Below are positions 10,643 through 55,290 of a stretch of DNA of 64,000 bases, piece by piece (within the stretch, counting starts at the first letter, position 1; every line of letters starts with the position of its first letter). The stretch is from Mayamaea pseudoterrestris. Lineage: Eukaryota. The stretch lies in NCBI GenBank assembly GCA_027923505.1, contig BROI01000026.1, positions 186,001 to 250,000 of the forward strand. The letters run 5' to 3'. The notes beneath the pieces are model-generated. The model saw nothing but the letters and a program-made list of their open reading frames with translations, was not told where the DNA came from and did not search any database. A program made the translations under genes and the position numbers.

Positions 10643-10788
10643 TGTGTAAGGTGTAGGGTCAAAAGTATATAAAGTATGAAAAAATGTTGGTTCGATTGCT
10701 TTTGCGAAAGAAATGAGGTGGTTGTCAGTTGTCAGTCACAATCATTGCATGTCGGCCGGAGAGCACGATATTATATTGTTTGCCGGTC

Positions 10789-14944: not shown

Positions 14945-15343
14945 GGTGATGATGGAAGAATGATGGAACGGATGGATCGACCGAAAGATCGAAACGTTAC
15001 ATCAGGAAAAGAGTGTCGCAACACGAATTGCCACGTCACTCCAGCTTCGATTGTCGTCGTGGAACGCCGCTGCTTTGCCATCAAATAATCCATGCTCGTG
15101 CGCGCAGATGCTTCTCTTGCAGAAACTACTACTTTGATAATTACAGTTGGACACGTTTTCTCTCTTTATTAGATAGCAAGCAAAGCGACTCTTCTATCCA
15201 CCCAAGAATTTCCTGTCAGTAGAGGCTCTTATAGAACGACCAGACGAGCATACGTATCGTGCCTCACCCCAAATCTTTCGCGTCGCACTTTACGAGACAC
15301 GCATATTATTCAGCTCATTCATCTCTTTCAAGAACTGTAAATT

Positions 15344-18300: not shown

Positions 18301-18808
18301 GTTGAAGGTCGACGAGCCCGAACAGTATGAGTTCCGTCCGAAGGAGATGCTGCTCAATTTGTGCTCCATCTTTGCCTTGTTTGGTGCATCAGAGGTCTTC
18401 CAGTCGGAGTGCGCAAAGGCTGGATGCAGTCCTGATCTGTTGCGTGATGCAGCCAAGCCCCTTCGGAAGTTCAACCTTTTGACTGGAGAGTCTATGGCTG
18501 CATTTGAAGCGTTGCCAGCGCTGATTGAGGTTTTTGCCAAGGATGTGTCGGCAGATGATGAGCTACATGCTGATGCGCCAGATGAATTCTTGGACGAATT
18601 GTTGTGCACATTTATGAAGGACCCAGTGAAGCTCCCATCTGGCCACTTTGTTGACCGGTCGACCATTACGCAGCATCTGCTGAATGACCCTATGGACCCA
18701 TTTAGTCGCGAACCAATGTCAGTCGACGATATTGCACCGGCGACAGAGCTCAAGGTGAGGATGGACACCTGGTTGGCCGAAAAGCGAGTCAGCCGCCAGC
18801 AGCAATAA
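15344..18808 (+). CDS. UFD2: Ubiquitin conjugation factor E4 (U-box), 2 exons (intron 17561-17629)
   Basis: A GTAAGT...TAG intron joins the two ORFs (YGS|IVRNYNLRAMLG). Ufd2 core motifs and C-terminal U-box PDEFLDELLCTFMKDPVKLPSG...DPFSREP. Confidence 0.93.
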
Positions 18809-19862: not shown

Positions 19863-20589
19863 TGTGTATATATACTAGTTGCGTTGAGTATCTCGCATCC
19901 ACTTTCTCTGACACTCGGGGATACAAAGCTGTATAAGAAGCTGCTGCAGTCAGCACCAAACACTGCCATGGCACTCCCTTGGCATGTCCAGCTGGACCTA
20001 CCAGTAGTGAGCTTCTGAACCTCATAGGCAACTGCACTGTAAGTAGTATACTCTTTTGTGTCTAGCCTCTTTCCAACCAGCAACCCTCATATACTTTTAC
20101 TGTCTTATGGATGTTATAACAAGCGCAGTAATAGTAGGAGCCTGCTATTTACAATGTACATCTCTACTGTCGCTAGGCTCAGTCAGGCTCACTTGAATGG
20201 TTGCCTAGTATATACCGCCACGCGGTCAAGTCAGACCACAGTTTCGAATGTTCGGTCTGACTCGAGTCAGATCGGTCCCTTCCCCCTGCCGCAAGGTGAA
20301 AATTCCGGCGCGCAGAACACGTTTTAGGTACATAGTCTACACAAAATTTCTACATGGACACGGATTCTCGGGACTCGATAACGGTCAACGGATTACATCG
20401 GCATTGGACAAAGTACGACGCGCCGGTAATCCCGCAAGGAACGACCCGACAAGTGCTACACACTAACTGGGCATTATTGCATACTAGCTAACAAGCAGGC
20501 TTCTAAGCATATAAAATACCATGTTAGGCAGCTCAAGGAGCATGCCATTTAATTGTGCTTACCTTCAAATGCATGAAGTATGGTTCAAC

Positions 20590-21740
20590 TTCTTGTCACC
20601 AGCTTGGCATCCTCTGAGGCTCCCAGTCTGTCTTTATCAATGACCAAGCAGCTTGCCGTCAAGTGTGCCATCATGTGATCCAAGTGGCAAGCCCAGTGAC
20701 TCACCTAGCGCAGGACCCAGTCTCTTTCTCAGTGCAGCACCAAGCTCGTCACATTCTGTAGCTCCCAGTTGGTCTCCCAGCACTCACCCCTGCAGCCTAC
20801 CGTCAAAGCACCAAGCCCAGAGTGTCACCTAGCGCAGGACCCAGTATCCATCCTAATGCAGCACCAATGTTTTCCCGCTCTGCAGCTTCCAGTTCATCTT
20901 CCAACACTCGCCCCAGCAGCTTGCCAACAAATGTGCCATTCAGTGACCCAAGCGCAAGGCCAATGCGTCATCTAGCGCATGACCTAGTCTCCTTCCCAGT
21001 GCAGCAGCACCTCCCCCTCTGTGGCTCCCACTTTGGTACCCAGCAATCACCCTAGCAGCTTGCTATCAAATGTTCCACCAATTGGATTCGAGACATTTTT
21101 TCTTCAAATACTAAACCATGCAGCTTGCCATCAACTGATTCAAGCACCAAGTCAAGTGAGATGCCTTTTGCAGGACCCAGTCTCCTTCCCAGTGCAGCTT
21201 CAAGCTTGTCACCCTCAGTGGCTCCCAGTTTGTCTCCAGGTCTCAACCCAGCAGCTTGTCATCAAGTGTGCCGTGATCAAAGTGGCAAGCCCAGTGACTC
21301 ACCTAGCGCAGAATCCAGTCTCTTTTCCAGCGCAAAACCAAGCTTGTCACCTTCTGTAGCTCCCCCTTGCTCTATACCAAGCAGCTTGCCATCAAGTGTG
21401 CCATCAAGTGACCCAAGTGGAAAGCCCAGTGACTCACCTAGCGCAGGACCCAGTCTCCTTCCCAGTGCAGCACCAAGCTTGTCACATTCTGTGGCTCCCA
21501 GTTGGTTTCCCTACACTCACCCCTGCAGCCTACCATCAAAGCGCCAAGCCCAGAGTGTCGCCTAGCGCAGGACCCAGCATCCATCCTAATGCAGCACCAA
21601 TGTTTTCCCCCTCTGCAACTTTCATGTGATCCAAATGCCTAGCCCGGTTATTCACCTAATGCAGGACTCAGGCGCTTTCCCAGTGCAGCACCAACTTGTC
21701 ACCCTCTGTAGCTCCCAGTTTATCTCCAAGCATTTAAAAC
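20590..21740 (+). pseudogene. Decayed Pro/Ser-rich (PSxxPSxxPS) repeat-coding sequence
   Basis: Several frames give PSSVPSSDPSGKPSDSPSAGPSLLPSAAPSLSPSVAPS. It is interrupted by stops and frameshifts, and is CpG-poor and CA/TG-rich. Confidence 0.7.
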
Positions 21741-22021
21741 TATGCAGTCTTTTGGAGCACCAAATGAAGTAGCAAGCTTGCCACACATACGGGTACTGCA
21801 TGTGCATATGGAAAGTGCCACGCAGTCAGGTCAGACCCCGGTCCCTCGGTGCAATTTATTGTACCGCTCCGACATTTGATTTGGCGAGGCGGCGATCCGC
21901 GACGGTTTCGCGAGTCCACTCACATCGACCATCGACCCTCTACCATGGGAAAGAACATAGCCGGCATACCACATTGACTCTGTCACACTTGATTGCTTTT
22001 GAAAGACCTGACTGTTATAAA

Positions 22022-25994: not shown

Positions 25995-26352
25995 GAAACG
26001 AGTGCCAGTGTCAAATACGTAGTTAGGCAATAGTACGAAACAAGTGCCAGTGAAAACTACGTCATAAGACAATACACCGAAACGGGTGCCAATGAAAACT
26101 ACGTCACGAGACTATAGTGCGAAACGAGTGCCAGTGAAAACTACGTCATTAGGCAATATTGTGAAACGAGTGCCAGTGAAAACTACGTCATAAGACGAAA
26201 CGGGTGCCAGTGTCAATTACGTCATCAGGCAATAGTACGAAACGAGTGCCAGTGTCAATTACGTCATCAGGCAATAATACGAAACGAGTGCCAGTGTCAA
26301 TTACGTCATAAGGCAATAGTACGAAACGAGTGCCAGTGTCAAAAACGTCATA
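25995..26352. repeat. 42-bp minisatellite, 9 copies, in the divergent promoter
   Basis: Consensus gaaacgagtgccagtgtcaattacgtcatNaggcaatagtac. Copies start at 25995, 26037, 26079, 26121, 26163, 26197, 26239, 26281 and 26323. Confidence 0.95.
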
Positions 26353-26499
26353 TGTGAGTAGTTGTCTTACTGTTAAAACGTATTACCGGTTTTGGTTTGC
26401 GTTCATCATTCGCACGTTTGCGCGTCTCGCGGCCATGGATGCATTGCAGTACTTGCAGTAGTAGTAGTCAACGAATGTACCATTGAATATATTTTATCT

Positions 26500-27345
26500 A
26501 TGATGGAAATTGATGCAGCTCCCGCTGACACTTTAGTAGACGTAGTAGACGCAGTATCGCAGGCTGCTGCCGCTGCAGTGGCCGACGCTGTCGCCCAAGC
26601 CGTCCTTGCCGAGCAGCCGATTGTCGATCAGCAGCAGTCATATTTGCCTGCAGATCCAGAAACATTGCCGGCGGGATGGGTCAAGAAGCTGTCGCAGTCG
26701 CAGCCAAATTGTTTTTACTATTTCAACTACGAGGCAGGCTTGTCGACTTGGCAGAGACCAAACTCTGTATCGGAAGATGGCGACGACGAGGACCAGCAAG
26801 TGGACGACGATCAGCAGGCCGATGACTTGATTAATCAACCAAGTATGGAATCAGTCGAATCAACGCCGGGCAATGGAGCAGAGGAAAAGGACGCTACATC
26901 TTCCAATAAGCGTTCCATTGTCGAAGATACCTCGGCCGATTCTGCTGCTGCTGCTCCACCGGCTGCCAAGCGCACCAAGACGACTCCAAAAGAGGTTCGT
27001 GTTTTGCACATTTTGAAAAAGCACAAGGACTCGCGAAAACCATCCTCCTGGCGAGTACCTCACATTACGCAGACACTGGAACAAGCTCGAGTTGAATTAT
27101 CCGACATTATATCCTTGCTGCAGGAAGTCCAGGATCATCCGGAGGAACTGCGAGCCACCTTTCAGGAGCTGGCCCGAACGGAAAGCGACTGCAGCAGCGC
27201 CAAGCGAGGCGGCGACTTGGGATTCTTTGGACCGCGCAAAATGCAACCAGCCTTTGAGAAGGCGTCCTTTGCATTGGAGATTGGAGAAATGAGTGGTTTG
27301 GTTGAAACGAGTAGTGGAGTGCATACGATTCTGCGAATTGGATGA
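26500..27345 (+). CDS. PIN1: Pin1/Ess1 parvulin peptidyl-prolyl isomerase with WW domain
   Basis: LPAGWVKKLSQSQPNCFYYFNYEAGLSTWQRP (WW domain); HILKKHKDSRKPSSW, ESDCSSAKRGGDLGFFG, MQPAFE and SGVH motifs. Confidence 0.93.
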   Translation: MMEIDAAPADTLVDVVDAVSQAAAAAVADAVAQAVLAEQPIVDQQQSYLPADPETLPAGWVKKLSQSQPNCFYYFNYEAGLSTWQRPNSVSEDGDDEDQQVDDDQQADDLINQPSMESVESTPGNGAEEKDATSSNKRSIVEDTSADSAAAAPPAAKRTKTTPKEVRVLHILKKHKDSRKPSSWRVPHITQTLEQARVELSDIISLLQEVQDHPEELRATFQELARTESDCSSAKRGGDLGFFGPRKMQPAFEKASFALEIGEMSGLVETSSGVHTILRIG

Positions 27346-39284: not shown

Positions 39285-39779
39285 CAAGCAGGCCAATAAA
39301 TGATGCTTATGTTATCAATTGAAAGTTGGCAAGTGAGCCAGCTGATGGAGTATGAGGTACGCGGTATGTGTCAAAATTATATTGGACTTAACAGTTAGAC
39401 CTAGAGCCACAATGCACACACATGCTGTTTCTCAGAAAGCACATAACAATTCTGTCTAGGGGGCTCGGTTTATGAAGGTGGTTGTCTTTAAATAGGCTAC
39501 TCTTTGGATAAAAGTTTGTATTGAATGTAGATGTAGATGCACTAAAATCGACGAATATGTTCAATGATGCAAGTGTATGTAAGCAAACCTTTGCGCTAAG
39601 GTTATTAAAATAGTGGCAATCCTCTAACACGACATGCAAAGAAGTGTAATGAATCTGCAGTTGGCTGTAAACCAGGCCCAACATTAGGCTTCCCAGATAA
39701 TAAATCGTCACACTGACAAGTGCCACAGCAAGTAGCTGGGCATAGGCATAAACAGGTGGCAGAATGGGAACTTGCAACA

Positions 39780-40140
39780 AATAGGATTGGGGAGCACATT
39801 CCCAGCTCATGTGTAGCATCACTTGCCATTTGGGAGGGAAGGTCCACACGGTAACCTGCCCATGTGAGACTACAGTGTGTGCACATTCAAGGCCACACTG
39901 AATCCGCCCTGCTCCATAGTATGTTCTGGCTGCTAGGGATCACAGCATTGCCTGCTGAGCCCTCCAATAGTCTTGCTCAAATTATGTTTTGTCAATGCTT
40001 GGGGACACATATGAGGGTCATGTTGCATCAGCATCCATCACCATGTATGCCATGGTGAGGAGCAGTCCACACTGTAACCAGCTGGTGCACCCAGTAAGTG
40101 AGACTCCCAAAAGGCCTACCCCATAATACAACAATATGGA
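39780..40140. repeat. Degenerate hybrid of Sat176 and Sat348 forming the left border of the satellite block
   Basis: Sat176 words (cagctcatgtgtagca, gggagg..ggtccacac, ccaatagtcttgctc, gcttggggacacatatg) are interleaved with Sat348 words (cagcattgcctgctgagccctccaat, cagcatccatcaccatg). Confidence 0.8.
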
Positions 40141-43100
40141 CTTGAGGACACATATTGATTGGTGCAGCAATCATTCGCAGCTCTGTGCATTGGTGTGTGG
40201 GAAGTCCACACTATGCCCTGACTCTTCAACAATGGTTGAATGGCCAGCCCTGCTCCCTTTTTGGCTGCAGGAATCATCAGCATTGCCCGCTGAGCCCTCC
40301 AATTTCTTTCAAATCATGTTTGTTGTTAATGATAGTACTTAATTTGGTCAGTTGCACCTCGGCATCCATCACCATGTACGCAACGGTGAGACTGAGCAGA
40401 TTCAACAACTTGTTGGATCTGCTAGCGGTGCACCTCAAGTGGCAAGTGAGACTTCCAAAAAAGCTTGCAGACCCAATAAGACAACCAATAGGGACATGCA
40501 CATTGATTGGGTCTCATAGACTTGTCCATTTGGGCGTGGAAGCCATCACTATGCCCTGAGACTCCGCACATTCAACGAATGGTTGAATGCGCCAGCCCTG
40601 CTCCCTTTTTGGCTACAGGTATCATCAGCATTGCCCGCTGAGCCCTCCAATTTCTTTCAAATCATGTTTGTTGTCAATGATGGGCCATAAGTTGGTCAGC
40701 TGCACCTCAGCATCCATCACCATGTATGCCACGGTGAGACTGAGCAGATTCAACAACTTGTTGGATCTGCTAGTGGTGCACCTCAAGTGGCAAGTGAGAC
40801 TTCCAAAATGGGCTGCAAACCCCATAAGACAAACATTTTGGACTTGAACATTGATTGGCGTCTCATAGACTTGCCCATTTAAGCGTGGAAGCCATCACTA
40901 TGCCCTGAGACTCCGCACATTCAAACAATGGTTGAATGTACCAGCCCTGCTCCCTTTTTGGCTGCAGGAATCATCAGCATTGCCCACTGAGCCCTCCCAA
41001 TTCTTTTAAATAATGTTGTTCTCAATGATGGCCATAAGTGGGTCAGTTGCACCTCAGCATGTTGGATCTGCTAGCGGTGCACCTCAAGTGGCAAGTGAGA
41101 CTTCCAAAATGGCTTGCAGACCCCATAAGACAACCAGTAGGGACTTAAACATTGATTGGGACTCGTAGACTTGTCCGTTTGGGCGTGGAAGCCCTCACTA
41201 TGCCCTGAGACTCCGCACATTCAACCAATGGTTGAATGTGCCAGCCCTGCTCCCAATTTGGCTGCAGGGATCATCAGCATTGCCCACTGAGCTCTCCAAT
41301 TTCTTTCAAATCATGTTTGTTCTCAATGATGGGCCATAAGTTGGTCAGCTGCACCTCAGCATCCATTACTATGTACGCCACGGAGTGACTGAGCAGTATC
41401 AACCAGCTTGTTGGATCTGCTAGCGGTGCACCTCAAGTGGCAAGTGAGACTTCCAAAATGGCCTGCAGACCCCATAATACAACCAATATGGACTTGAACA
41501 ATGAATGGGTTTCATAGACTTGTCCATTTGGGTGTGGAAGCCATCACTATGCCCTGAGACTCCGCACATTCAACCAATGGTTGAATGTGCCAGCCCTGCT
41601 CCCTTTTTGGCTGCAGGGATCATCAGCATTGCCCGCTGAGCCCTCCAATTTCTTTCAAATCATGTTTGTTGTCAATTATAGGCCCTGAGTTGGTCAGTTG
41701 CACCTCAGCATCCATCACTATGTACGCCGCGGTGAGACTGAGCAGATTCAACAACTTGTTGGATCTGCTAGCGGTGCACCTCAAGTGGCAAGTGAGACTT
41801 CCAAAATGGCCTGCAGACCCCATAAGACAACCAATATGGACTTGAACATTGTTTGGGACTCATAGACTTGTCCATTTGGGTGTGGAAGCCATCACTATGC
41901 CCTGAGACTCCGCACATTCAACCAATGGTTGAATGTGCCAGCCCTGCTCCCTTTTTGGCTGCAGGGATCATCAGCATTGCCCGCTGAGCCCTCCAATTTC
42001 TTTCAAATCATGTTTGTTGTCAATGATGGGCCATAAGTTGGTCAGCTGCACCTCAGCATCCATCACCATGTACACCACAGTGAGAAACTTGTTGGATCTG
42101 CTAGCGGTGCACCTCAAGTGGCAAGTGAGACTTCCAAAATGGCCTGCAGACCCCATAAGACAACCAATATGGACTTGAACATTGTTTGGGACTTGTAGAC
42201 TTGTCTATTTGGGCGTGGAAGCCATCACTATGCCCTGAGACTCCGCACATTCAACCAATGGTTGAATGTGCCAGCCCTGCTCCCTTTTTGGCTGCATGGA
42301 TCATCAGCACTGCCCGCTGAACCCACCAATTTCTTTCAAATCATGTTGTTCTCAATGATGGCCATAAGCTGGTCAGTTGCACCTCAGCATCCATCACCAT
42401 GTACGCCACAGTGAGACTGAGCAGATCCAACAACTTGTTGGATCTGCTAGTGGTGCACCTCAAGTGGCAAGTGAGACTTCCAAAATGGCCTGCAGACCCC
42501 ATTATACAACCAATATGGACTTGAACATTGATTGGGACTCGTAGACTTGTCCATTTGGGCGTGGAAGCCATCACTATGCCCTGAGACTCCGCACATTCAA
42601 CCAATGGTTGAATGTGCCAGCCCTGCTCCCTTTTTGGCTGCAGGAATCATCAGCATTGCCTGCTGAGCCCTCCAATTTCTTTCAAATCATGTTTGTTGTC
42701 AATGATGGGCCTTAAGTTGGTCAGCTGCACCTCAGCATCCATCACCATGTATGCCACGGTGAGACTGAGCAGATTCAACAACTTGTTGGCTCTGCTATTG
42801 GTGCACCTCAAGTGGCAAGTGAGACTTCCAGATTGGCCTGCAGACCCCATAAGACAACCAATATGGACTTGAACAATGAATGGGACTCATAGACTTGTCC
42901 ATTTGGGCGTGGAAGCCATCACTATGCCCTGAGACTCCGCACATTCAACCAATGGTTGAATGTGCCAGCCCTGCTCCCTTTTTGGCTGCAGGGATCATCA
43001 GCATTGCCCGCTGAGCCCTCCAATTTCTTTCAAATCATGTTTGTTGTCAATGATGGGCCATAAGTTGGTCAGCTGCACCTCAGCATCCATCACCATGTAC

Positions 43101-46100
43101 ACCACAGTGAGAAAACTTGTTGGATCTGCTAGCGGTGCACCTCAAGTGGCAAGTGAGACTTCCAAAATGGCCTGCAGACCCCATAAGACAACCAATAGGG
43201 ACATGGACATTGATTGGGTCTCATAAACTTGTCCATTTGGGCGTGGAAGCCATCACTTTGCCCTGAGACTCCACACATTCAACGAATGGTTGAATGCGCC
43301 AGCCCTGCTCCCTTTTTGGCTACAGGTATCATCAGCATTGCCCGCTGAGCCCTCCAATTTCTTTCAAATCATGTTTGTTGTCAATGATGGGCCATAAGCT
43401 GGTCAGCTGCACCTCAGCATCCATCACCATGTATGCCACGGAGAGTCTGAGCAGATTCAACAACTTGCTGGATCTGCTAGCGGTGCACCTCAAGTGGCAG
43501 GTGAGACTTCCAAAAAGGCTTGCAGACCCCATAACACAAAAATTATGGACTTGAACATTGATTGGGACTCATAGACTTGTCTATTTAAGCGTGGAAGCCA
43601 TCACTATGCCCTGAGACTCCGCACATTCAACCAATGGTTGAATGTGCCAGCCCTGCTCCCTTTTTGGCTGCAGGAATCATCAGCATTGCCTGCTGAGCCC
43701 TCCAATATATTTCAAATCATGTTTGTTGTCAATGATAGGCCCTTAGTTGGTCAGTTGCACCTCAGCATCCATCACTATGTACGCCACGGGGAGACTGAGC
43801 AGATTCAACAACTTGTTGGATCTGCTAGCAGTGCACCTCAAGTGGCAAGTGAGACTTCCAAAATGGCCTGCAGACCCCATAAGACAACCAATATGGACTT
43901 GAACATTGTTTGGGACTCATAGACTTGTCCATTTTAGCGTGGAAGCCATCACTATGCCCTGAGACTCCGCACATTCAACCAATGGTTGATTGTGCCAGCT
44001 CTGCTCCCTTTTTGGCTGCAGGTATCATCAGCATTGCCCGCTGAGCTCTCCAATTTCTTTCAAATCATGTTTGTTGTCAATTGTAGGCCTTGAGTTGGTC
44101 AGTTGCACCTCAGCATTCATCACCATGTATGTCGTGGGGAGACTGAGCAGATTCAACAACTTGTTGGATCTGCTAGCAGTGCACCTCAAGTGGCAAGTGA
44201 GACTTCCAAAATGGCCTGCAGACCCCATAAGACAACCGGAAAGAAAACGTCTGATCGGCACTCAACACCAATGGTTGAATGTTCCTTCAGCCCTGTCCTT
44301 CCTTTGTTCAGGAATCATCAGCACTGCGGTGCCCGCCCCAACCCCCAATCAAACCAAAAATTTGTGTGTCACGACAGGCCCTAATTGGTCAGCTGCACCT
44401 CAGCATTCATCACCATGTATGTCGTGGGGAGACTGAGCAGATTCAACAACTTGTTGGATCTGCTAGCAGTGCACCTCAAGTGGCAAGTGAGACTTCCAAA
44501 ATGGCCTGCAGACCCCATAAGACAACCGTGGAAGCCATCACTATGCCCTGAGACTCCGCACATTCAACCAATGGTTGAATGTACCAGCCCTGCTCCCTTT
44601 CTGGCTGTAGAAATCATCAGCATTGCCCGCTGAGCCCTCCAATCTCTCTTGTTGGATCTGCTAGCAGTGCACCTCAAGTGGCAAGTGAGACTTCCAAAAT
44701 GGCCTGCAGACCCCATAAGACAACCAATAGGGACATGAACATTGATTGGGACTCATAGACTTGTCCATTTTGGCGTGGAAGCCATCATAATGCCCTGAGA
44801 CTCCGCACATTCAACCAATGGTTGAATGTGTCAGCTCTGCTCCCATTTTGGCTACAGGAATCATCAGCATTGCCCACTGAGCCCTCCAATTTCTTTCAAA
44901 TCAAATTTGTTGTCAATGATAGGCCCTAAGTTGGTCAGTTGCACCTCAGCATCTAAGACCATGTACACCACGGTGAGATTGAGCAGATTCAACAACTTGT
45001 TGGATCTGCTAGCGGTGCACCTCAAGTGGCAAGTGAGACTTCCAAAATGGCCTGCAGACCCCATAAATCAACCAATAGGGACATGAACATTGATTGGGTC
45101 TCATAGACTTGTCCATTTGGGCGTGGAAGCCGTCACTATGCCCTGAGACTCTGCACATTCAACGAATGGTTGAATGCGCCAGCCCTGCTCCCTTTTTGGC
45201 TACAGGGATCATCAGCATTGCCTGATGAGCCCTCCAATTTATTTCAAATCATGTATGTTGTCAATGATAGGCCATAAGTTGGTCAGTTGCACCTCAGCAT
45301 TCATCACCATGTACGCCACGGAGAGACTGAGCAGATTCAACAACTTGTTGGATCTGCTAGCGGTGCACCTCAAGTGGCAAGTGAGACTTCCAAAAAGGCT
45401 TGCAGACCCCATAAGACAACCATTATGGACTTGAACATTGATTGGGACGCATAGACTTGTCCATTTGGGCATGGAAGCCATCACTATGCCCTGAGACTCC
45501 GCACATTCAACCAATGGTTGAATGTGCCAGCCCTGCTCCCTTTTTGGCTGCAGGAATCATCAGCATTGCCCGCTGAGCCCTCCAATCTCTTTCATATCAT
45601 GTTGGTTGTCAATGATAGGCCCTAAGTTGGTCAGTTGCACCTCAGCATCCATCACTATGTACGCCGCGGTGAGACTGAGCAGATTCAACAACTTGTTGGA
45701 TCTGCTAGTGGTGCACCTCAAGTGGCAAGTGAGACTTCCAAAATGGCCTGCAGACCCCATAAGACAACCCATATGGGCTTGAACATTGATTGGCACGCAT
45801 ACACTTGTCCATTTGGGTGTCAAAGCCATCATTATGCTTTGAGACTCCGCACATTCAACCAATGGTTGAATGTGCCAGCCCTGCTCCCTTTTTGGCTGCA
45901 GGAATCATCAGCATTGCCCGCTGAGCCCTCCAATTTCTTTCAAATCATGTTTGTTGTCAATGATAGGCCCTAAGTTGGTCAGTTGCACCTCAGCATCCAT
46001 CACCATGTACGCCACGGTGAGACTGAGCAGATTCAACAACTTGTTAGAGCTGCTAGCGGTGCACCTCAAGTGGCAAGTGAGACTTCCAAAATGGCCTGCA

Positions 46101-49100
46101 GACCCCATAAGACAACCAAAATGGACTTGACCAATGAATGGGACTCATAGGCTTGTCCATTTGGGTGTGGAAGCCATCACTATGCCCTGAGACTCCGCAC
46201 ATTCAACCAATGGTTGAATGTGCCAGCCCTGCTCCCTTTTTGGCTGCAGGAATCATCAGCATTGCCCGCTGAGCCCTCCAATTTCTTTCAAATCATGTTT
46301 GTTGTCAATGATAGGCCCTAAGTTGGTCAGCTGCACCTCAGCATCCATCACCATGTATGCCACAGAGAGACTGAGCAGAATCAACAACTTGTTGGATCTG
46401 CTAGCAGTGCACCTCAAGTGGCAAGTGAGACTTCCAAAATGGCCTGCAGACCCCATAAGACAACCAAAATGGACTTGACCAATGAATGGGACTCATAGAC
46501 TTGTCCATTTGGGCATGGAAGCCATCACTATGCCCTGAAACTCCGCACATTCAACCAATGGTTGAATGCGCCAGCCCTGCTCCCTTTTTGGCTGCAGGAA
46601 TCATCAGCATTGCCCGCTGAGCCATCCAATTTCTTTCAATTTCATGTTGGTTGTCAATGATAGGCCCTAAGTTGGTCAGCTTCACCTCAGCATCCATCAC
46701 CATGTACACCACGGTGAGAAACTTGTTGGATCTGCTAGCGGTGCACCTCAAGTGGCAAGTGAGACTTCCAAAATGGCCTGCAGACCCCATAAGACAACCC
46801 TTATGGACTTGAACAATGAATGGGTTTCATAGACTTGTCCATTTGGGTGTGGAAGCCATCACTATGCCCTGAGACTCCGCACATTCAACCAATGGTTGAA
46901 TGTGCCAGCCCTGCTCCCTTTTTAGCTGCATGAATCATCAGCATTGCCTGCTGAGCCCTCCAATTTCTTTCAAATCATGTTGGTTGTCAATGATAGGCCC
47001 TAAGTTGGTCAGCTGCACCTCAGCATCCATCACCATGTCGCCCGGTAAGAGACTGAGCAGATCAACAACTTGTTGGATCTGCTCACTGCACCCCTCAAGT
47101 GGCAAGTGAGACTTCCAAAATGGCCTGCAGACCCCATAATACAACCAATATGGACATGAACATTGTTTGGGACTCATAGACTTTTCCCCATTTGGGCCGT
47201 GGGACCCATCACTGCCCTATGGACTCTACCCCGAACTCCGCACAACCAATGGTTGAATGCGCCAGCCGCTCCCTTTTTGGCTGCAGGAATCATCAGCATT
47301 GCCCGCTGAGCCGTCCAATTTCTTTCAAATCATGTTTGTTGTCAATGATGGGCCATAAGTTGGTCAGCTGCACTCAGCATCCATCACCATTCGCCCACCA
47401 CGGTGACGGCGATTCAGCAACTTGTTGGATCTGCTAGCGGTGCACCTCAGGCAAGTGAGACTTCCAAATGGCCTGCAGACCCCATAACCAACTGTCACAT
47501 CAACTTACAGTAAGACATCAATGCCCAACACTCTGCCATCAACACAATTGATGTCAAGACTTGTCCTAATTTGTGGATAGTCATCGTAAGCATCTGCCCC
47601 TGAGTCCCATGGTTGATTGGCACTCCTTTTGCTGCAGTGATCATCAGCATTCCCGCGCTGAGCCCTCCAATTTCTTTCTATCATGTTTGTTGTTGTCAAT
47701 GGGCCGTAGGTTGGTGTCAGCTGCACAGCATCCATCACCATTATTGCACAGCGGTGAGACTGAGCAGATTCAACAACTTGTTGGATCTGCTAGCAGTGCA
47801 CCTCCTTCGGGCAAGTGAGACTTCCCAAAATGGGCCTGCAGACCCCATAAGAAACAACCAACATGAGCTTGATTGCCTCATAACTTGTCCATTGGCAGAT
47901 CACTATGTTTGAGACTCACACATCAACCAACATGGTTGAATGTGCCAGCCCTGCCCTCTGCTCTCTTTTTGGCTGCAGGGATAATTTCAGCGTACTGCCC
48001 GTGAGCCCTCCCACTTTTTCTTTTCAAATCATGTTTGTTGTCATTGGTAGGGCCCTAAGTTGGTCATCCACCTCTGGGGCAGCACCACATGACACCAGTT
48101 CCAGGAAAAGTTGGAGCTGCTAGCGGTACACCTCAAGTGGCAAGTGAGACTTCAAAATGGCCTGCAGACCCCATAAGACAACCAATATTCGACCTGAGGA
48201 CTATACTCCATTATCCTATCCACTTCCCAATTTTGGATTGCACTACTCCCTCGGCACATTCAACCATTTGCGTGCCAGCCTTTGAGGAATCATCCATTGC
48301 CTGCTGGGCCCTAATTTCTTTTTCAAACCATGTAGTCATTAGTGGGCCCTAAGTTGGTCATTGTGCTCCCTCCAGCATCCATCACCATGTATACCACAGA
48401 AAGAATCAACTTGTTGGATCTGCTACAGTACCTCAAAGTGTAAGTGGAAGCTTAGACTATGGACAAATGGCCTGCAACTGACCCCATAAGACAACCAAAA
48501 TGGACTTGACCATTGTCTGGGCTCATAGACTTGTCCATTTGGGCATGAAGCCAATCACTATGCCCTGAGAACTCCACACATCCAACCAATGGTTGAATGC
48601 GCCAGTCCCTGCTCCCTTTTTGGCTGCAGGAATCATCAGCATTGCCCGCTGAGCCCTCCAATTTTTCTTTCAATCATGTTTTTGTCAATGATGGGCCCTA
48701 AGTTGGTCAGCTTCACCTCAGCATCCATCTGCAAACACCACGGTATGCACTTGTTGGATCTGCTGCGAGTGCACCTCAAGTGGTAAGTGAGACTTCCCAA
48801 AGGCCGCAGACCCCATAAGACAACCAACAGGACTTGAACATTGATTGGGTCTCATAGACTTGTCCATTTAAAGGTGGAAGCCATCACTATGCCGTGAGCC
48901 TCCGCACATCTAACTAATGGTTGAATGTGCCAGCCCTCTGCCGTTTTGGCTTGCAGGAATCATCAGCATTGCCCCGCTGAGCCCTCCAATTCTTTCAAAT
49001 CATGTTTGTTGTCAATGATGGGCCCTAAGTTGGTCAGCTGCATCTCAGCATCCATCACCATATACGCCACAGAAGATCCTGGATCTGCACCAGTTTCCAC

Positions 49101-52100
49101 ACCCAAGGGCAGTGAGACTTAAATTTAATGGCTCAGACCCCATAAGACAACCAATATGGACTTGAACATTGTTTGGGACTATAGACTTGTCCATTTGGGT
49201 GTGGAAGCCATCACTATGCCCTGAGACTCTGCACATCCAACCAATGGTTGAATGTGCCAGCCCTGCTCCCTTTTTGGCTGCAGGAATCATCAGCATTGCC
49301 TGCTGAGCCCTCCAATTTCTTTCAAATCATGTTTGTTGTCAATGATGGGCCCTGAGTTGGTAAGTTGCACCTCAGCATCCATCACCATGTATGCCACAGA
49401 GAAACTGAGCAGATTCAACAACTTGTTGGATCTGCTAGCGGTGCACCTCAAGTGGCAAGTGAGACTTCCAAATGGCCTGCAGACCCCATAATACAACCAA
49501 TATGGATGAACAAATTGATTGGTTTTCATAGACTTGTCCATTTTGGCGTGGAAGCCATCACCATGCCCTGATACTCCGCACATTCAACCAATGGTTGAAT
49601 GTGCCAGCCCTGCTCCCTTTTGGCTGCAGGAATCATCAGCATTGCCTGCTGAGCCCTCCAATTTCTTTCAAATCATGTTTGTTGTCAATGATGGGCCCTA
49701 AGTTGGTCAGCTGCACCTCAGCATCCATCACCATGTACACCACAGTAAGAAAACTTGTTGGATCTGCTAGCAGTGCACCTCAAGTGGCAAGTGAGACTTC
49801 CGAAATGGCCTGCAGACCCTATAATACAACCAAAATGGACTTGAACATTGTTTGGGATGCATAGACTTGTCTATTTTGGCGTGGAAGCCATCACTATGCC
49901 CTGAGACTCCGCACATCCAACCAATGGTTGAATGTGCCAGCCCTGCTCCCCATTTGGCTGCAGGGATCATCAGCATTGCCTGCTGAGCCCTCCAATTTCT
50001 TTCAAATCATGTTGTTCTCAATGATGGCCATAAGTTGGTCAGCTGCACCTCAGCATCCGTCACCATGTATGCTACGGTGAGACTGAGCAGATTCAACAAC
50101 TTGTTGGATCTGCTAGCGGTGCACCTAAAGTGGCAAGTGATTCTTCCAAATTGGCCTGCAGACCCCATAAGACAACCAATATGGACTTGAACATTGATTG
50201 TGACTCGTAGACTTGTCTATTTGGGTGTGGAAGCCATCACTATGCCCTGATACTCCGCACATTCAATCAATGGTTGAATGTGCCAGCCCTGCTCCCTTTT
50301 TGGCTGCATGGATCATCAGCATTGCCTGCTGAGCCCTCCAATTTCTTTCAAATCATGTTGTTCTCAATGATGGCCATAAGTGGGTCAGTTGCACCTCAGC
50401 ATCCATCACCATGTACGCCACAGTGAGACTGAGCAGATCCAACAACTTGTTGGATCTGCTAGTGGTGCACCTCAAGTGGCAAGTGAGACTTCCAAAATGG
50501 CTTGCAGACCCCATACGACAACCCATATGGACTTGAACATTGATTGGGACTCATAGACTTGTCCATTTGGGCAGGGAAGCCATCACTATGCCCTGAGACT
50601 CCACACATTCAACCAATGGTTGAATGTGCCAGCCCTGCTACCTTTTTGGCTGCAAAGATCATCAGCATTGCCCGCTGAGTGGTCCAATTTCTTTTAATTC
50701 ATGTTGTTTTCAATGATGGGCCATAAGTTGGTCAGCTGCACCTCAGCATCCATCACCATGTATGCCACGGTGAGACTGAGCAGACTCAACAACTAGTTGG
50801 ATCTGCTAGCGGTGCACCTCAAGTGGCAAAAATGGCCTGCAGACCCCATAATACAACCAATATGGACTTCAACAATGAATGGGACTTGTAGACTTGTCCA
50901 TTTGGGCGTGGAAGCCATCACTATGCGCTGAGACTCCGCACATTCAACCAATGGTTGAATGTGCCAGCCCTGCTCCCTTTTTGGCTGCATGGGTCATTAG
51001 CATTGCCCGCTGAGCCATCCAATATCTTACCAATCATGTTGTTCTCAATGATGGCCATAAGTTGGTCAGTTGCACCTCAGCATCCATCACCATGTACGCC
51101 ACAATGAGACTGAGCAGATTCAACAACTTGTTGGATCTGCTAGCGGTGCACCTCAAGTGGCAAGTGAGACTTCCAAAATGGCCTGCAGACCCCATAAGAC
51201 AACCAATATGGACATGAACATTGTTTGGGACTCATAGACTTGTCCATTTTGGCGTGGAAGCCATCACTATGCCCTGAGACGCTGCACATTCAATCAATGG
51301 TTGAATGTGCCAGCCCTGCTCCCTTTTTGGCTGCATGGATCATCAGCATTGCCCGCTGAGCCCTCCAATTTCTTTCAAATCATGTTTGTTGTCAATGATG
51401 GGCCATAAGTTGGCCAGTTGCACCTCAGCATCCATCACCATGTACGCCACAGTGAGACTGGGCAGATCCAACAACTTGTTGGATCTGCTAGCAGTGCACC
51501 TCAAGTGGCAAGTGAGACTTCCAAAATGGCCTGCAGACCCCATAAGAACAACCAATATGGACTTGAACATTGTTTGGGACTCATAGACTTGTCCATTTGG
51601 GCATGGAAGCCATCACTATGCCCTGAGACTCCGCACATTCAACCAATGGTTGAATGTGCCAGCCCTGCTCCCTTTTTGGCTGCAGGAATCATCAGCATTG
51701 CCCGCTGAGCCCTCCAATTTCTTTCAAATCATGTTGTTGTCAATGATGGCCATAAGTTGGTCAGCTGCACCTCAGCATCCATCACCATGTACACCACGGT
51801 GAGACTGAGCAGATTCAACAACTTGTTGAATCTGCTAGCGGTGCACCTCAAGTGGCAAGTGAGACTTTCAAAACGGCAAGCAGACCCCATAATACACTCA
51901 ATATGGACTTGAACATTGAAACGGACTCGTAGACTTGTCCATTTGGGCATGGAAGCCATCACTATGCCCTGAGACTCCGCACATTCAACCAATAGTTGCA
52001 TGTATAAGCCCTGCTCCCTCTTAGGCTGCAGGGATCATCAGCATTGCCCGCTGAGCCCTCCAATTTCTTTCAAATCATGTTGTTCTCAATGATGGGCATA

Positions 52101-52483
52101 AGATGGTCAATTGCACCTCAGCATCCATCACCATGTATGCCATGGTGAGACTGAGCAGATTCAACAACTTGTTGGATCTGCTTGTGGTGCACCTCAAGTG
52201 GCAAGTGAGACTTCCAGATTGGCCTGCAGACCCCATACTACAACCAATATCGACTTGAATAATGAATGGGACTCGTAGACTTGTCCATTTGGGTGTGGAA
52301 GCCATCACTATGCCCTGAGACTCCGCACATTCAACCAATGGTTGAATGTGCCAGCCCTGCTCCCTTTTTGGCTGCAGGGATCATCAGCATTGCCCGCTGA
52401 GACCTTCAATTTCTGTTAATGATGGGCCATAAGTTGGTCAGTTGCACTTCAGCATCCATCACCATGTATGCCACGGTGAGACT
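40140..52483. repeat. Tandem satellite with 348-bp unit (Sat348, a dimer of ~174-bp subunits), about 35 copies
   Basis: Equivalent positions at 45174, 45522, 45870 and 46218 give a 348-bp period; two homologous palindromes per unit. Confidence 0.97.
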
Positions 52484-53510
52484 TTGGGAAGGCAAGGGCC
52501 ACTTTGTAACCAGCTCCATGGTGCTACAGTGTGTGGCTTTCAAAGACTACCCCCAATTGTCTTGCTCCATGAATTTAGTTTTGGCTATGCTTGGGGTCAC
52601 GTATGTGGTGAGATTGGTGCGCTGCAATCTTTGCAGCTCATGTGTAGCATTGGTTATTTAGGAGGGCAAAGGTCCACTCTGTAACCAGCTCAATGGTGCT
52701 ACAGTGTGTGGCCTTCAAAGACTACCCCCAATAGTCTTGCTCCATGAATCATGTCCTGGCTATGCTTGGGAACATGTATGCGGTGAGATTGGTCCATTAC
52801 AATCATTTGCAGCTCATGTTAAACATTAATTGTTTGGGAGGGCAAATGCCAACACTGTAACCAACTCCGTGGTGCTACAGTGTGTAGCCTTTAAAGACTA
52901 CCTGCAATAGTCTTGCTCCATGAATTATGTTCTGGCTATGCTTGGGGACACATATGCGGTGAGATTGGTGCATCACAATCATTTGCAGCTCATGTGTAGC
53001 ATTGGTTGTTTGGGAGGGCAAAGGTCCACACTGTAACCAGCTCCATGGTGCTACAGTGTGTGGCCTTCAAAGACTACCCCTAATTGTCTTGCTCCATGAA
53101 TTCAGTTTTGGCTATGCTTGGAGGCACATATGTGCGGAGATTGGTGCATTGCAATCATTTGCAGTTCATGTGTAGCATTGGTTGTTTGGGAGGGCAAAGG
53201 TCCACACTGTAACCAGCTCCATGGTGCTACAGTGTGTGGCCTTCAAAGACTACCCCCAATAGTCTTGCTCCAAGAATTATGTTCTGGCTATGCTTGGGGA
53301 CACATATGCGGTGAGATTGGTCCATCACAATCATTCGCAGCTCATGTGTAGTATCAGTTGTTTGGGAGGGCAAAGGTCCACACAGTAATCATCTCCATGG
53401 TGCTACAGTGTGGCCATCAAAGACTATCCCCCATAGTCTTGCTCCATGAATTCAGTTATGGCTATGTTTGGGGTAATGCATGCAGTGAGATTGGTGCACA
53501 ACAATTCTTT
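52484..53510. repeat. Tandem satellite with 176-bp monomer (Sat176), about 6 copies
   Basis: ggagggcaaa at 52661, 52837, 53013, 53189 and 53365. Internal inverted repeats cacactgta...tacagtgtg and aagacta...tagtctt. Confidence 0.95.
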
Positions 53511-53870
53511 TTTTCAACGTGTGCTACAAGTAAAGTTGACTTGCTGGTGTCTATGCGGACTGCAATGTGATTGGTGATAATGTGTCACCAGTGTCAGCCA
53601 GCAGCTGCAATGCCTTTCAAATGCCCATACCTTGAGCCATGTGTATGCCTAATTCAAGTCTGAATGATGCCAACATCTTTGTTTAAGATGCGCTACAAGA
53701 AAAATTGACTGGCTGGTCCCGTGGTTGACTGCAATGTGATTGGTGACAACTTGTCACCAATCTCAGCCAGCAGATGCCGTAATTTTCAAAAGCCCATACC
53801 TTGAGCCAAGCATATTCCCAAATCAAGCCAGAATGGTGCTAACATCCTTAGTTAGGCTGCGCTACAAGAT
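53510..53870. repeat. About 2 copies of Sat169 (same family and orientation as 6360-8830)
   Basis: ctgcaatgtgattggtgacaacttgtcacca, gcctttcaaatgcccatacc and aaatcaagccagaatggtgctaacatcctta are shared with the 6.4-8.8 kb array. Confidence 0.92.
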
Positions 53871-53876
53871 GGTACT

Positions 53877-53978
53877 GCTGACAACACCGCATCCTGTCTG
53901 CTCTGCGAAACTAAGCAGCGCCTGGCCCGCTTAGTACTAGGCTGGAGTCCATGTTGGAATCCCAGGTGTTCTTGTTTT
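53877..53978 (+). pseudogene. 5'-truncated 5S rRNA copy 1
   Basis: gctgacaacaccgcatcctgtctgctctgcgaaactaagcagcgcctgg...gttggaatcccaggtgttcttgtttt aligns to the gene at 10525-10642; the first ~16 nt are absent. Confidence 0.9.
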
Positions 53979-54614
53979 AATGTTTGTATTTCTCATACCG
54001 GCAGCCGGTCTGTTGAATGCTCCTTATCATAAGTGGCATTCATGGATCAATTTCGGCCATTGTAGCGGTTGAAGGGCAGCTCTCCGTCGTTAATTTTGAT
54101 GCCACCAGCGACTATCGTGATTTGCTACCAATGCCTCCTCAACACAGTGACGGGCCAAGTTGCGCCGAAGAAGGTATTTGGGAGTTTGCCAGGAACCATG
54201 AGATTTCTACAAGCTACCAAAGCGCTGGAATAATTGATGTGGCAATAAGGAGGTTGGTTAATTAGGTGCTTGTTTTTGATGTGCTACAAATATGGCAATC
54301 GTGCCCGCTCGCAACGACGCACGTTGACCTTTATTACTCGAAACGCTAATTGGACATGCCCGCAGTGCAAAGTTATGTAACAAGCTTCACGTTCTGCACT
54401 CGAGCTGCATCTTCTTTTTTAAGCTTAACTGCGTCCTGCGGCGAATGCGAGGCGAATTGAAACGAAAAATCTGTAGTCACTAACAACATATGATCCGTAG
54501 TTGGTACATTCCGCACAATCTGCAACCAAATAATTACCTTGAGCCAAGCATATTCCCAAATCAAGCCAGAATGGTGCTAACATCCTTAGTTAGGCTGCGC
54601 TACAAGATGGTACT

Positions 54615-54716
54615 GCTGACAACACCGCATCCCGTCTGCTCTGCGAAATTAAGCAGCGCCTGGCCCGCTTATTTCTAGGCAGGGGACCATGTTGGAATCC
54701 CAGGTGAACTTGTTTT
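54615..54716 (+). pseudogene. 5'-truncated 5S rRNA copy 2
   Basis: Same alignment as copy 1 with partly different substitutions; ends in TTTT. Confidence 0.9.
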
Positions 54717-55290
54717 ATTGTTTATATTTCTCATACCGGCAGCCGGTCTGTTGAATGCTCCTTATCATAAGCGGCATTCATTCTCCGTCGTTAATTTTGG
54801 TGCCGCCAGCGACGATCGTGATTTGCTACCAATGCCTCCTCAACCCAGTGACGTGCCAAGTTGCGCCGAAGAAAGTGTTTGGAAGTTTGCCAGGAACCAT
54901 GAGATTTCTACAAGCTACCAAAGCGCTGAAATAAATGATGTGGCAATAAGGAGGGCTATTGGTTAATCAGCTGCTTGTTTTTGATGTGCTACAAATATCG
55001 CAATTGTGCCCGCTCGCCACGACGCACGTTGACCTTATTACTCGAAACGTTAATTGAACATGCCCGCATTACCAAAGCTATGTAAAAAGCTTCACGTTCT
55101 GCACTCGAGCTGCATCTTCAAGCTTAACTGCGTCCTGCGGCGAATGCGAGGCGAATTGAAACGAAAAATCTGTAGTCACTGACAACATATGACGTAGTTG
55201 GTACATTGCGCACAATCTGCAACCAAATAATTCTTGCCAAATTTAATCAAACGCAAGCATACCACACCTCACCCCTCCACGTGCTCGTTA

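What the first reader, a model, noticed from the sequence alone, without database searches (positions are those of the whole stretch)
40140..52483. Sat348 is a hidden dimer whose two palindromes co-vary, so dyad structure rather than sequence is conserved
Seen: each unit has palindrome A, GCACATTCAACCA-A-TGGTTGAATGTGC (perfect 13-bp arms, e.g. 45501-45527), and palindrome B, AGCAGATTCAACAA-C-TTGTTGGATCTGCT (e.g. 45678-45706). Their centres are 178 and 170 bp apart. A and B are homologous: both follow ccatcacYatg...gagact and precede agc. They differ by two compensatory pairs (C-G to G-C; C-G to A-T) and the central base. The single T.G mismatch in B is made perfect both ways in individual copies (C-G at 42420-42448, T-A at 51808-51836). 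Inference: a ~174-bp module maintained as a cruciform/hairpin or symmetric protein-binding site, once per nucleosome length. Neutral quasi-palindrome correction by template switching is the alternative.
Basis: partly seen in the sequence, partly recalled or inferred. Interest (0 to 1): 0.85.

Follow-up and report, generated by a model that had tools for sequence, protein, structure and literature searches.

The report
Diatom satellite with paired, co-varying palindromes
A 348-bp tandem repeat in a diatom genome is an old two-part unit, and each part carries a 27-bp palindrome whose two arms changed together; this is a familiar kind of satellite feature, and copying errors explain it as well as a function does.

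Summary
Window 40139-52483 is a head-to-tail 348-bp satellite of about 35 units in a gene-dense diatom contig. Each unit has palindrome A and palindrome B, 178 and 170 bp apart, and the two are homologous.

Contigs from four public runs add one key point. In 79-89% of depth, B carries C where the window has the T of the T.G mismatch. The common B is therefore a perfect palindrome. A and B then differ by three compensated pairs and no one-sided change, which has a chance of about 5e-5 under independent substitutions.

- Within the array, the arms are not significantly better kept than the flanks (0.67 vs 0.90 distinct variants per site, p=0.12).
- B's left arm is lost in 9 of 33 copies, through several different deletions.
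- The right arms are never lost.
- Conservation extends about 50 bp downstream of each dyad, so it is not centred on the dyad.

The neighbouring Sat176 belongs to the same superfamily but has its palindrome at a different position. The unrelated Sat169 also has one.

My best reading is that hairpins form during replication, keep the arms complementary by template switching, and also delete arms. A selected non-B-DNA role is not excluded. This is a new member of a known kind.

The parts
40139..52483 (+). Sat348 array, about 35 units of 346-348 bp, all head to tail
   Evidence: TRF; nhmmer single-sequence and profile searches; 35 A sites and 33 B sites
45501..45527 (.). Palindrome A, example copy: 13-bp perfect arms around a centre A
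   Evidence: 15 exact copies in the window; the DNA fold gives a 12-pair stem with a 3-nt loop
45679..45705 (.). Palindrome B, example copy: 13-bp arms around a centre C, with a T.G at pair 7 in this array
   Evidence: 45685 T>C in 79-89% of depth in four runs makes the common genomic form perfect
42421..42447 (.). B copy with C-G at pair 7, which is the common genomic state
51809..51835 (.). B copy with T-A at pair 7, the same state as palindrome A; the only within-array compensation in Sat348
42068..42108 (+). Example of a B site whose left arm is deleted (consensus position 248 joined to 264)
   Evidence: the deletion junctions are of several different types
39775..40128 (+). Two hybrid edge units, similar both to Sat176 and to the Sat348 halves
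   Evidence: z = 10.7 to 39, with 0 of 500 shuffles as high in each test
52474..53473 (+). Sat176 array (unit 174-176 bp) with its own long imperfect palindrome CCACACTGTA..TACAGTGTGG
6351..8683 (+). Sat169 array with palindrome TGGTGACAA-C-TTGTCACCA. Copies at 7700-8037 carry a compensated T-A, and copies at 6494 and 6962 carry the T.G intermediate
53488..53872 (+). Second short Sat169 array, next to Sat176

Best explanation
Sat348 is an abundant satellite of a diatom. Its 348-bp unit is an old dimer of two units of about 174 bp, which belong to the same superfamily as the neighbouring Sat176. Each half carries a 27-bp palindrome just upstream of a better-kept block of about 50 bp.

I infer that the palindromes fold back on themselves when the DNA is single-stranded during replication. 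Template switching between the arms (quasi-palindrome correction) then copies a change from one arm onto the other. This keeps each palindrome perfect while its sequence drifts, and it produces the compensated differences between A and B. The same hairpins cause slippage that deletes an arm. Unequal exchange and conversion within arrays spread whichever form arises.

Shown: the dimer, the homology of A and B, the compensated pairs, the deletion hot spot, and the lack of measurable per-copy constraint.

Inferred: hairpin formation in vivo and template switching as the cause. A function for the dyad is not needed by this account, and it is not excluded.
For: - Compensation: A and the common B differ at 3 of 13 pairs, all on both sides, with no one-sided change. 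The chance is 4.6e-5 to 5e-5 under independent substitutions. A single arm-to-arm copying event per palindrome would give the same result.
- Both common forms are perfect, as correction predicts.
- No per-copy constraint: arms carry 0.67 against 0.90 distinct variants per site in the flanks, p=0.12. Window A ranks 98th and window B 304th of 347.
- Recent arm variants are mostly uncompensated. In one search the co-variation comes only from the A/B split.
- Deletion hot spot: gaps are 0.186 per site per monomer in B's left arm, against 0.018 in the flanks. The junctions are of at least five types: 221>268, 248>264, 247/248>261, 243>265 and 241>271. The array itself ends at consensus position 250, just before B.
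- Palindromes appear independently. Sat176, Sat348 and the unrelated Sat169 each have one per unit. Non-satellite DNA has 4 in 47.6 kb.
- The Sat176 palindrome aligns to the CCATCAC..GAGACT motif upstream of A and B, not to A or B themselves. Dyads therefore turn over.
- In print: template switching can make compensatory hairpin changes in one step (10.1101/2021.04.15.439925; I saw only the search listing and the start of the abstract).
Against: - Conservation across runs: in all four runs the summed contig depth peaks over A plus about 55 bp and over B plus about 45 bp. In X1 the peaks are about 1e6 and the troughs about 4e4 to 9e4. This suggests the dyad regions are the best-kept part of the family. 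The tool warns that contig depth cannot rank parts of a stretch, so this is weak evidence.
- Only 2 of the 37 listed variable positions fall in the 54 palindrome positions, where 5.8 are expected (one-sided binomial p=0.058, Fisher p=0.09). 32 further rows were not shown.
- One contig each from two organisms with a small share of the satellite's sampled words (X4, X6) matches around palindrome A and then runs on into unlike sequence, upstream at 45487 or 45492 and downstream at 45531 (table 7).
- Only 3 of 13 pairs differ between A and B, while the flanks are near saturation (core 35 of 49 identical). This fits slower evolution of the arms.
- Template switching by itself does not explain why all three satellite families have one dyad per unit of about 170 bp.
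Confidence: 0.5

Rival explanations
1. The dyad is selected as a structure. One cruciform- or hairpin-forming palindrome per nucleosome-length unit would serve as a non-B-DNA signal for centromeric or heterochromatic chromatin, and compensatory substitutions would keep it intact.
For: - Three compensated pairs and no one-sided change between the common forms of A and B.
- The path C-G > T.G > T-A is visible at pair 7 of B. It is also visible in the Sat169 palindrome, with 2 monomers at T.G and 2 adjacent monomers at T-A.
- Depth peaks over the dyad regions in four runs, and few listed variants fall in the arms.
- Three satellite families each have a strong dyad per 169-178 bp, against 4 in 47.6 kb elsewhere.
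- Dyad symmetries in centromeric satellites are an established idea (PMC5889037; search listing and start of the abstract only).
Against: - No significant per-copy conservation of the arms in the array.
- 9 of 33 B sites have lost the left arm, and 20 of 35 A sites are imperfect.
- Conservation is asymmetric. Right arms are never at or below 8 of 13 matches, while left arms are in 4 A sites and 9 B sites. It also extends about 50 bp downstream, which is not what a dyad-centred constraint predicts.
- 45512 C>A, which breaks pair 12, reaches 40-57% of depth with no listed partner change.
- Known diatom centromeres are short low-GC regions without satellites (10.1101/2021.11.10.468027, passages read). 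The array has the same GC content as its surroundings.
Confidence: 0.28
2. The palindrome is the symmetric binding site of a dimeric sequence-specific protein, in the manner of a CENP-B-box.
For: Perfect two-fold symmetry, a fixed position in each half unit, and a very constant B-to-A spacing of 170 bp. The right arm and the 50 bp downstream form the best-kept block.
Against: A and B have different half-sites at 3 of 13 positions, yet each stays internally symmetric. A single protein would not demand that. The Sat176 and Sat169 dyads have unrelated sequences. No candidate protein was examined.
Confidence: 0.08
3. The arrays are transcribed, and the palindromes act as RNA hairpins that feed small-RNA silencing of the repeat.
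For: A G.T intermediate is tolerated at high frequency: 14 of 33 B copies have 12 Watson-Crick pairs plus T.G. That pair would be a stable wobble in RNA. The stems are 12-13 pairs long.
Against: There is no evidence here on transcription. No Rfam family matches the unit: the best hit is E=0.54 and far below its threshold. A 13-bp stem is short for a Dicer substrate (my own knowledge).
Confidence: 0.07
4. The palindromes are junctions between the terminal inverted repeats of tandemly arranged MITE-like or foldback elements.
For: Head-to-tail elements with terminal inverted repeats would create a palindrome at every junction.
Against: That model predicts that an element's own two ends are complementary, so A's right arm should pair with B's left arm. 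Instead each palindrome is complementary only within itself, and A and B differ at 3 pairs. No transposase or helicase domain is found in the flanking reading frames.
Confidence: 0.02

Closest known systems
Satellite DNAs with dyad symmetries predicted to form non-B DNA (Kasinathan and Henikoff 2018, PMC5889037; Tribolium satellites, PMC13081366). I saw only the search listings and the start of each abstract.
   Same: A tandem array with units near nucleosome length, one strong dyad per unit, and dyads present in unrelated families of the same genome.
   Different: The arms here are 13 bp and perfect, whereas that survey concerned dyads under 10 bp. The host is a diatom. Centromeric location is unknown. 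The array lies among housekeeping genes.
Dimeric or higher-order satellite units, such as alternating subunit types in primate alpha satellite (recalled, not from a call)
   Same: Two diverged subunits alternate. Dimers are about 84-91% alike, while the subunits are alike only in a core (35 of 49 positions).
   Different: The subunits have diverged almost to the point of being unrecognisable outside the core of about 50 bp. A monomeric relative (Sat176) lies next door, joined to the array by hybrid units.
Quasi-palindrome correction by replication template switching (10.1101/2021.04.15.439925 and PMC3820800; search listings and the start of each abstract only)
   Same: Inverted repeats are kept or made perfect, multi-site compensated differences arise, and the same sites are unstable.
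   Different: Here it is inferred from the pattern in a satellite. No mutation event was observed.

Membership tests
Satellite DNA (tandem, non-coding) | Long head-to-tail array of near-identical units | tested here: met
   About 35 units at 84-91% identity. 3101, 1137, 78 and 104 contig pieces were laid in four runs, which shows a large and varied family.
Dimeric higher-order unit | Two homologous subunit types that alternate and are more diverged from each other than the dimers are | tested here: met
   Core homology z=11.9. For the flanks, 13 of 1000 shuffles reach the observed global score. A and B alternate strictly with 178/170 spacing. Both halves link to the 174-bp Sat176 through the edge units.
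Non-B-DNA (dyad) centromeric satellites | Dyad symmetry able to form a hairpin or cruciform in each unit | tested here: met
   The DNA fold gives a 12-pair stem in the A half (total -28.9 kcal/mol, z=-3.35). The stem is also present in the B half, but that total is not unusual (z=-1.07). The window has 60 such palindromes in the satellites against 4 in 47.6 kb elsewhere.
Non-B-DNA (dyad) centromeric satellites | Centromeric location or CENH3 association | not testable with these tools
   No whole genome is held and no chromatin data are available. The array sits among housekeeping genes at average GC content.
Structure conserved by selection (as in an RNA stem) | Paired positions more conserved than unpaired ones, and many independent compensations | tested here: inconclusive
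   Arms against flanks gives p=0.12 in the array. In the runs, 2 of 37 listed variable sites fall in the arms, p=0.058. Compensated pairs: 3 between A and B, 1 within B and 1 in Sat169. The three between A and B could stem from one or two events.
Quasi-palindrome template-switch sites | Arm-templated changes that raise complementarity, together with instability at the repeat | tested here: inconclusive
   The common forms are perfect and compensation is all-or-none. Deletions are ten times denser at B's left arm. No single templated event can be shown.
Junctions of terminal inverted repeats of tandem transposons | The ends of one element are complementary to each other, so A's right arm would pair with B's left arm | tested here: not met
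   Complementarity holds within each palindrome only. A and B differ at 3 pairs.
Ribozyme-bearing satellites (hammerhead type) | A match to a self-cleaving ribozyme model | tested here: not met
   Rfam at E<=1 on two units, both strands, returns only a chance MS2 hairpin hit (E=0.54, 15.6 bits against a threshold of 40).

The most novel reading that the evidence does not exclude
In this diatom lineage, the thing kept may be the presence of one strong cruciform-forming dyad per nucleosome-length satellite unit, rather than its sequence or exact position. Sat176, the two halves of Sat348 and Sat169 would then be successive solutions to the same requirement. The arrays would mark satellite-based centromeres or heterochromatin, unlike the short low-GC centromeres known from model diatoms.
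Probability: 0.15. Interest if true: 0.75.

Novelty: new member of a known kind. Interest (0 to 1): 0.4.

Why it matters
Satellite DNA in diatoms appears to be almost undescribed. The search for diatom or Bacillariophyta together with satDNA or satellitome listed no such paper among its 15 top rows. The search for diatom, satellite repeat, palindrome and monomer listed none among its 15 top rows either.

This locus offers a compact natural series for one question: are dyads in satellites selected structures, or by-products of replication errors? The series has four parts:
- a monomeric satellite;
- hybrid units;
- a dimeric satellite with two co-varying palindromes;
- an unrelated satellite with its own palindrome.

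If selection were shown, that would support the idea that non-B DNA helps define repeat chromatin, in a lineage far from animals and plants. If not, the locus is a clear example of how template switching can mimic compensatory evolution.

Tried and rejected
- Whole genome: none is held for this window.
- Metagenome scan with the degenerate palindrome scaffold: one locus, L001. It is non-repetitive, coding-looking DNA with no tandem repeat, so it is a chance hit. The same pattern gave 0 hits in viral contigs. No outside copies were available for a covariation test.
- Sequencing runs: 7 holders from 2 studies, with no RNA holder listed. Expression was therefore not examined.
- Direct homology of the consensus sequences: Sat348 halves against Sat176, Sat348 halves against Sat169, and Sat176 against Sat169 all score at the level of shuffles. 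Profile searches do not cross-hit the main arrays. Sat176 links to Sat348 only through the edge units. Sat169 stays unlinked.
- Ribozyme or other known RNA: none found.
- Transposon context: flanking reading frames are housekeeping genes or have no family match.
- Terminal-inverted-repeat junction model: rejected on the pattern of complementarity.
- Literal search for a 17-nt piece of palindrome A in papers: 0 papers.
- My first reading put the Sat176 palindrome in the same register as A and B. The multiple alignment instead places it on the CCATCAC..GAGACT motif. Edge unit 2 carries both segments, so it is a mosaic. I treat the exact register as unsettled.
Full report
**Context**

The window is gene-dense, at about 48% GC throughout. 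It has long open frames for housekeeping proteins: peptidase M3, sugar transporter, NAD kinase, UFD2, Arf and thioredoxin-like. The peptidase M3 frame finds its best named relatives in diatoms (Seminavis, Nitzschia, Cylindrotheca, Thalassiosira) at 55-61% identity, so the host is a diatom. No whole genome is held for the window.

**The observation**

- TRF reports a 346-348-bp array from 40225 to 52483 at 84-91% matches. A profile search puts the first unit at 40139. All units are on the + strand.
- A scaffold pattern left free at the seven positions where A and B differ matches 35 times, against none in 100 shuffles.
- I located 35 A sites and 33 B sites. The usual spacing is 178 (A to B) and a very constant 170 (B to A).

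**Hidden dimer**

- The two halves share a 48-bp core, TGAGACT..palindrome..AGC..TGC.CC. It scores 36 against 15.6 +/- 2.2 for shuffles, and z=11.9 under a second scheme.
- Outside the core the halves are only weakly collinear. The global score is -59 against -91.5 +/- 12.4, and 13 of 1000 shuffles reach it.
- Independent support comes from the left edge of the array. Two units at 39775-40128 are significantly similar both to the 174-bp Sat176, which forms its own array at 52474-53473, and to the Sat348 halves. Edge 1 gives z=10.7 against half A and z=39 against Sat176. Edge 2 gives z=32 against half B and z=27 against Sat176. No shuffle of 500 reaches the observed score in any of these tests.
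- The main Sat348 and Sat176 consensus sequences do not match each other directly, so the link runs only through these hybrids.

**Co-variation**

- Within the window, A and B differ by two pairs changed on both sides, one T.G, and the centre base.
- Laying contigs of four public runs on one unit changed this picture. The runs come from four coded organisms in two studies; 3101, 1137, 78 and 104 pieces were laid.
- At 45685, the T of the T.G, 85, 89, 79 and 89% of the summed depth reads C. The common genomic B is therefore a perfect palindrome, and the T.G is a local derived state of this array.
- A and the common B then differ at three pairs (C-G/G-C, T-A/C-G, C-G/A-T) with no one-sided difference.
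- Under independent substitutions the chance is 0.0029 for the in-window pattern and about 5e-5 for three of three.
- The tool count on 45 distinct palindrome rows gives 83.4% of cells paired, against 78.0 +/- 0.9 in shuffles (0 of 500 as high). It also shows that all the co-variation comes from the A/B split. The number of independent events is therefore small.
- One further compensation is seen inside B: the single T-A copy.
- Another is in the unrelated Sat169 palindrome. There C-G becomes T.G in two monomers and T-A in two adjacent monomers.

**Evidence against a per-copy constraint**

- Substitutions: in 31 near-full monomers the arms carry 0.67 distinct substitution variants per site, against 0.90 in the flanks (p=0.12).
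- Window conservation: as 28-bp windows, A ranks 98th and B 304th of 347.
- Intact copies: only 15 of 35 A sites and 4 of 33 B sites are perfect. A further 14 B sites have 12 pairs plus T.G.
- Lost arms: nine B sites have six or fewer pairs because the left arm is gone.
- Deletion density: gaps are ten times denser in B's left arm than in the flanks (0.186 vs 0.018 per site per monomer).
- Independent events: the junctions are of at least five types. Some recur at a 1026-bp period, so they were partly copied with a three-unit repeat. The array itself stops at consensus position 250, just before B.
- Asymmetry: the right arms are never badly damaged.
- Uncompensated changes: recent arm variants are uncompensated. 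Examples are the linked C>G and T>C changes in three A copies and T>C at pair 7 in several A copies.
- Genome-wide mismatch: 45512 C>A, at pair 12 next to the loop, holds 40-57% of depth with no listed partner change. 32 rows of that table were hidden, so a partner change cannot be ruled out.

**Evidence that the dyad regions are nevertheless the best-kept part of the family**

- In all four runs the summed depth has two peaks per unit, over A plus about 55 bp and over B plus about 45 bp. The tool warns that contig depth cannot rank parts of a stretch, so this is weak evidence.
- Only 2 of the 37 listed variable positions lie in the 54 palindrome positions (binomial p=0.058, Fisher p=0.09).
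- One contig each from two organisms with a small share of the satellite's sampled words (X4, X6) matches around A and then runs on into unlike sequence, upstream at 45487 or 45492 and downstream at 45531 (table 7).
- The kept block is not symmetric about the dyad. It is the right arm plus the downstream sequence.

**Dyads in all the satellites**

- With one criterion (10 or more paired bases, at most one mismatch, loop of 20 or less) the window has 64 palindromes. Sixty lie in the satellites and 4 in the other 47.6 kb.
- Sat176 has a long imperfect palindrome and a second 7-bp hairpin. Sat169 has a 9-12-bp-arm palindrome.
- In the alignment through the hybrid units, the Sat176 palindrome falls on the CCATCAC..GAGACT motif that precedes both A and B, not on A or B. 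The dyads of Sat176 and Sat348 are therefore probably not positional homologues, and dyads seem to be lost and made anew. Edge unit 2 carries both segments and is a mosaic, so I hold this register loosely.

**Mechanism**

The local nature of the complementarity rules out junctions of terminal inverted repeats. Each palindrome pairs only with itself, and A and B differ.

All-or-none compensation, perfect common forms, a deletion hot spot at one arm and the lack of per-copy constraint fit hairpin formation during replication. Template switching would correct the arms, and slippage would delete them. That mechanism is in print as a source of one-step compensatory changes (listing only).

Selection for a non-B structure is the main rival, following the idea of dyad symmetries at centromeres (listing only). 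The depth profile, the low count of common arm variants and the presence of a dyad in three families favour it. The asymmetry and the many broken copies count against it.

Known diatom centromeres are short low-GC regions without satellites (passages read). The array is not low in GC.

A symmetric protein site and an RNA hairpin role are possible, but nothing here supports them specifically. Rfam finds nothing in the unit.

**Comparison and novelty**

This is a satellite with dyad symmetry and a dimeric higher-order unit, and both are known kinds. Three things are new:
- the host group, for which my searches listed no description of satellites;
- the clean three-pair compensation between the two halves;
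- the adjacent series of related and unrelated satellites that each carry a dyad.

**Verdict**

This is a new member of a known kind, of moderate interest.

Noticed in passing
window 10525-10643 (-); 53862-53978 (+); 54600-54716 (+): There is one good 5S rRNA gene (101 bits) and two weak 5S-like copies (47.6 and 42.3 bits). Each weak copy directly follows a partial Sat169 unit. Both lie in a duplicated block of roughly 700-740 bp covering 53797-55232 (94-98% identity between the two copies). Sat169 may therefore be tied to a 5S spacer.
   Followed up: partly
window 39775-40128 and 40139-40310: The left edge of the Sat348 array consists of mosaic units. These mix Sat176-type segments, including its palindrome arm, with Sat348-type segments. 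Sat176 thus flanks the Sat348 array on both sides.
   Followed up: yes
window 41060-44245: A B site with a deleted left arm recurs every 1026 bp (three units). This suggests a three-unit higher-order repeat within the array.
   Followed up: partly
window 25995-26352: A 42-bp tandem repeat (8.7 copies, with 118- and 160-bp super-periods) lies just upstream of a reading frame with WW and PPIase domains (26377-27345).
   Followed up: no
window 20688-21499: Two C-rich repeats of 124 and 135 bp, about 2 copies each, lie in a stretch with strong negative GC skew (-0.21 over 20001-22000). They may be a repetitive coding region (open frame 21056-21565).
   Followed up: no
window 15341-17596 and 17630-18808 (+): The UFD2 ubiquitin-elongation core is split over two adjacent open frames (profile positions 1-333 and 366-623, followed by a U-box). 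The likely cause is a short intron or a frame change.
   Followed up: no
L001 1498-1524: The only metagenome match to the palindrome scaffold lies in non-repetitive, coding-looking DNA. It is a chance hit.
   Followed up: yes
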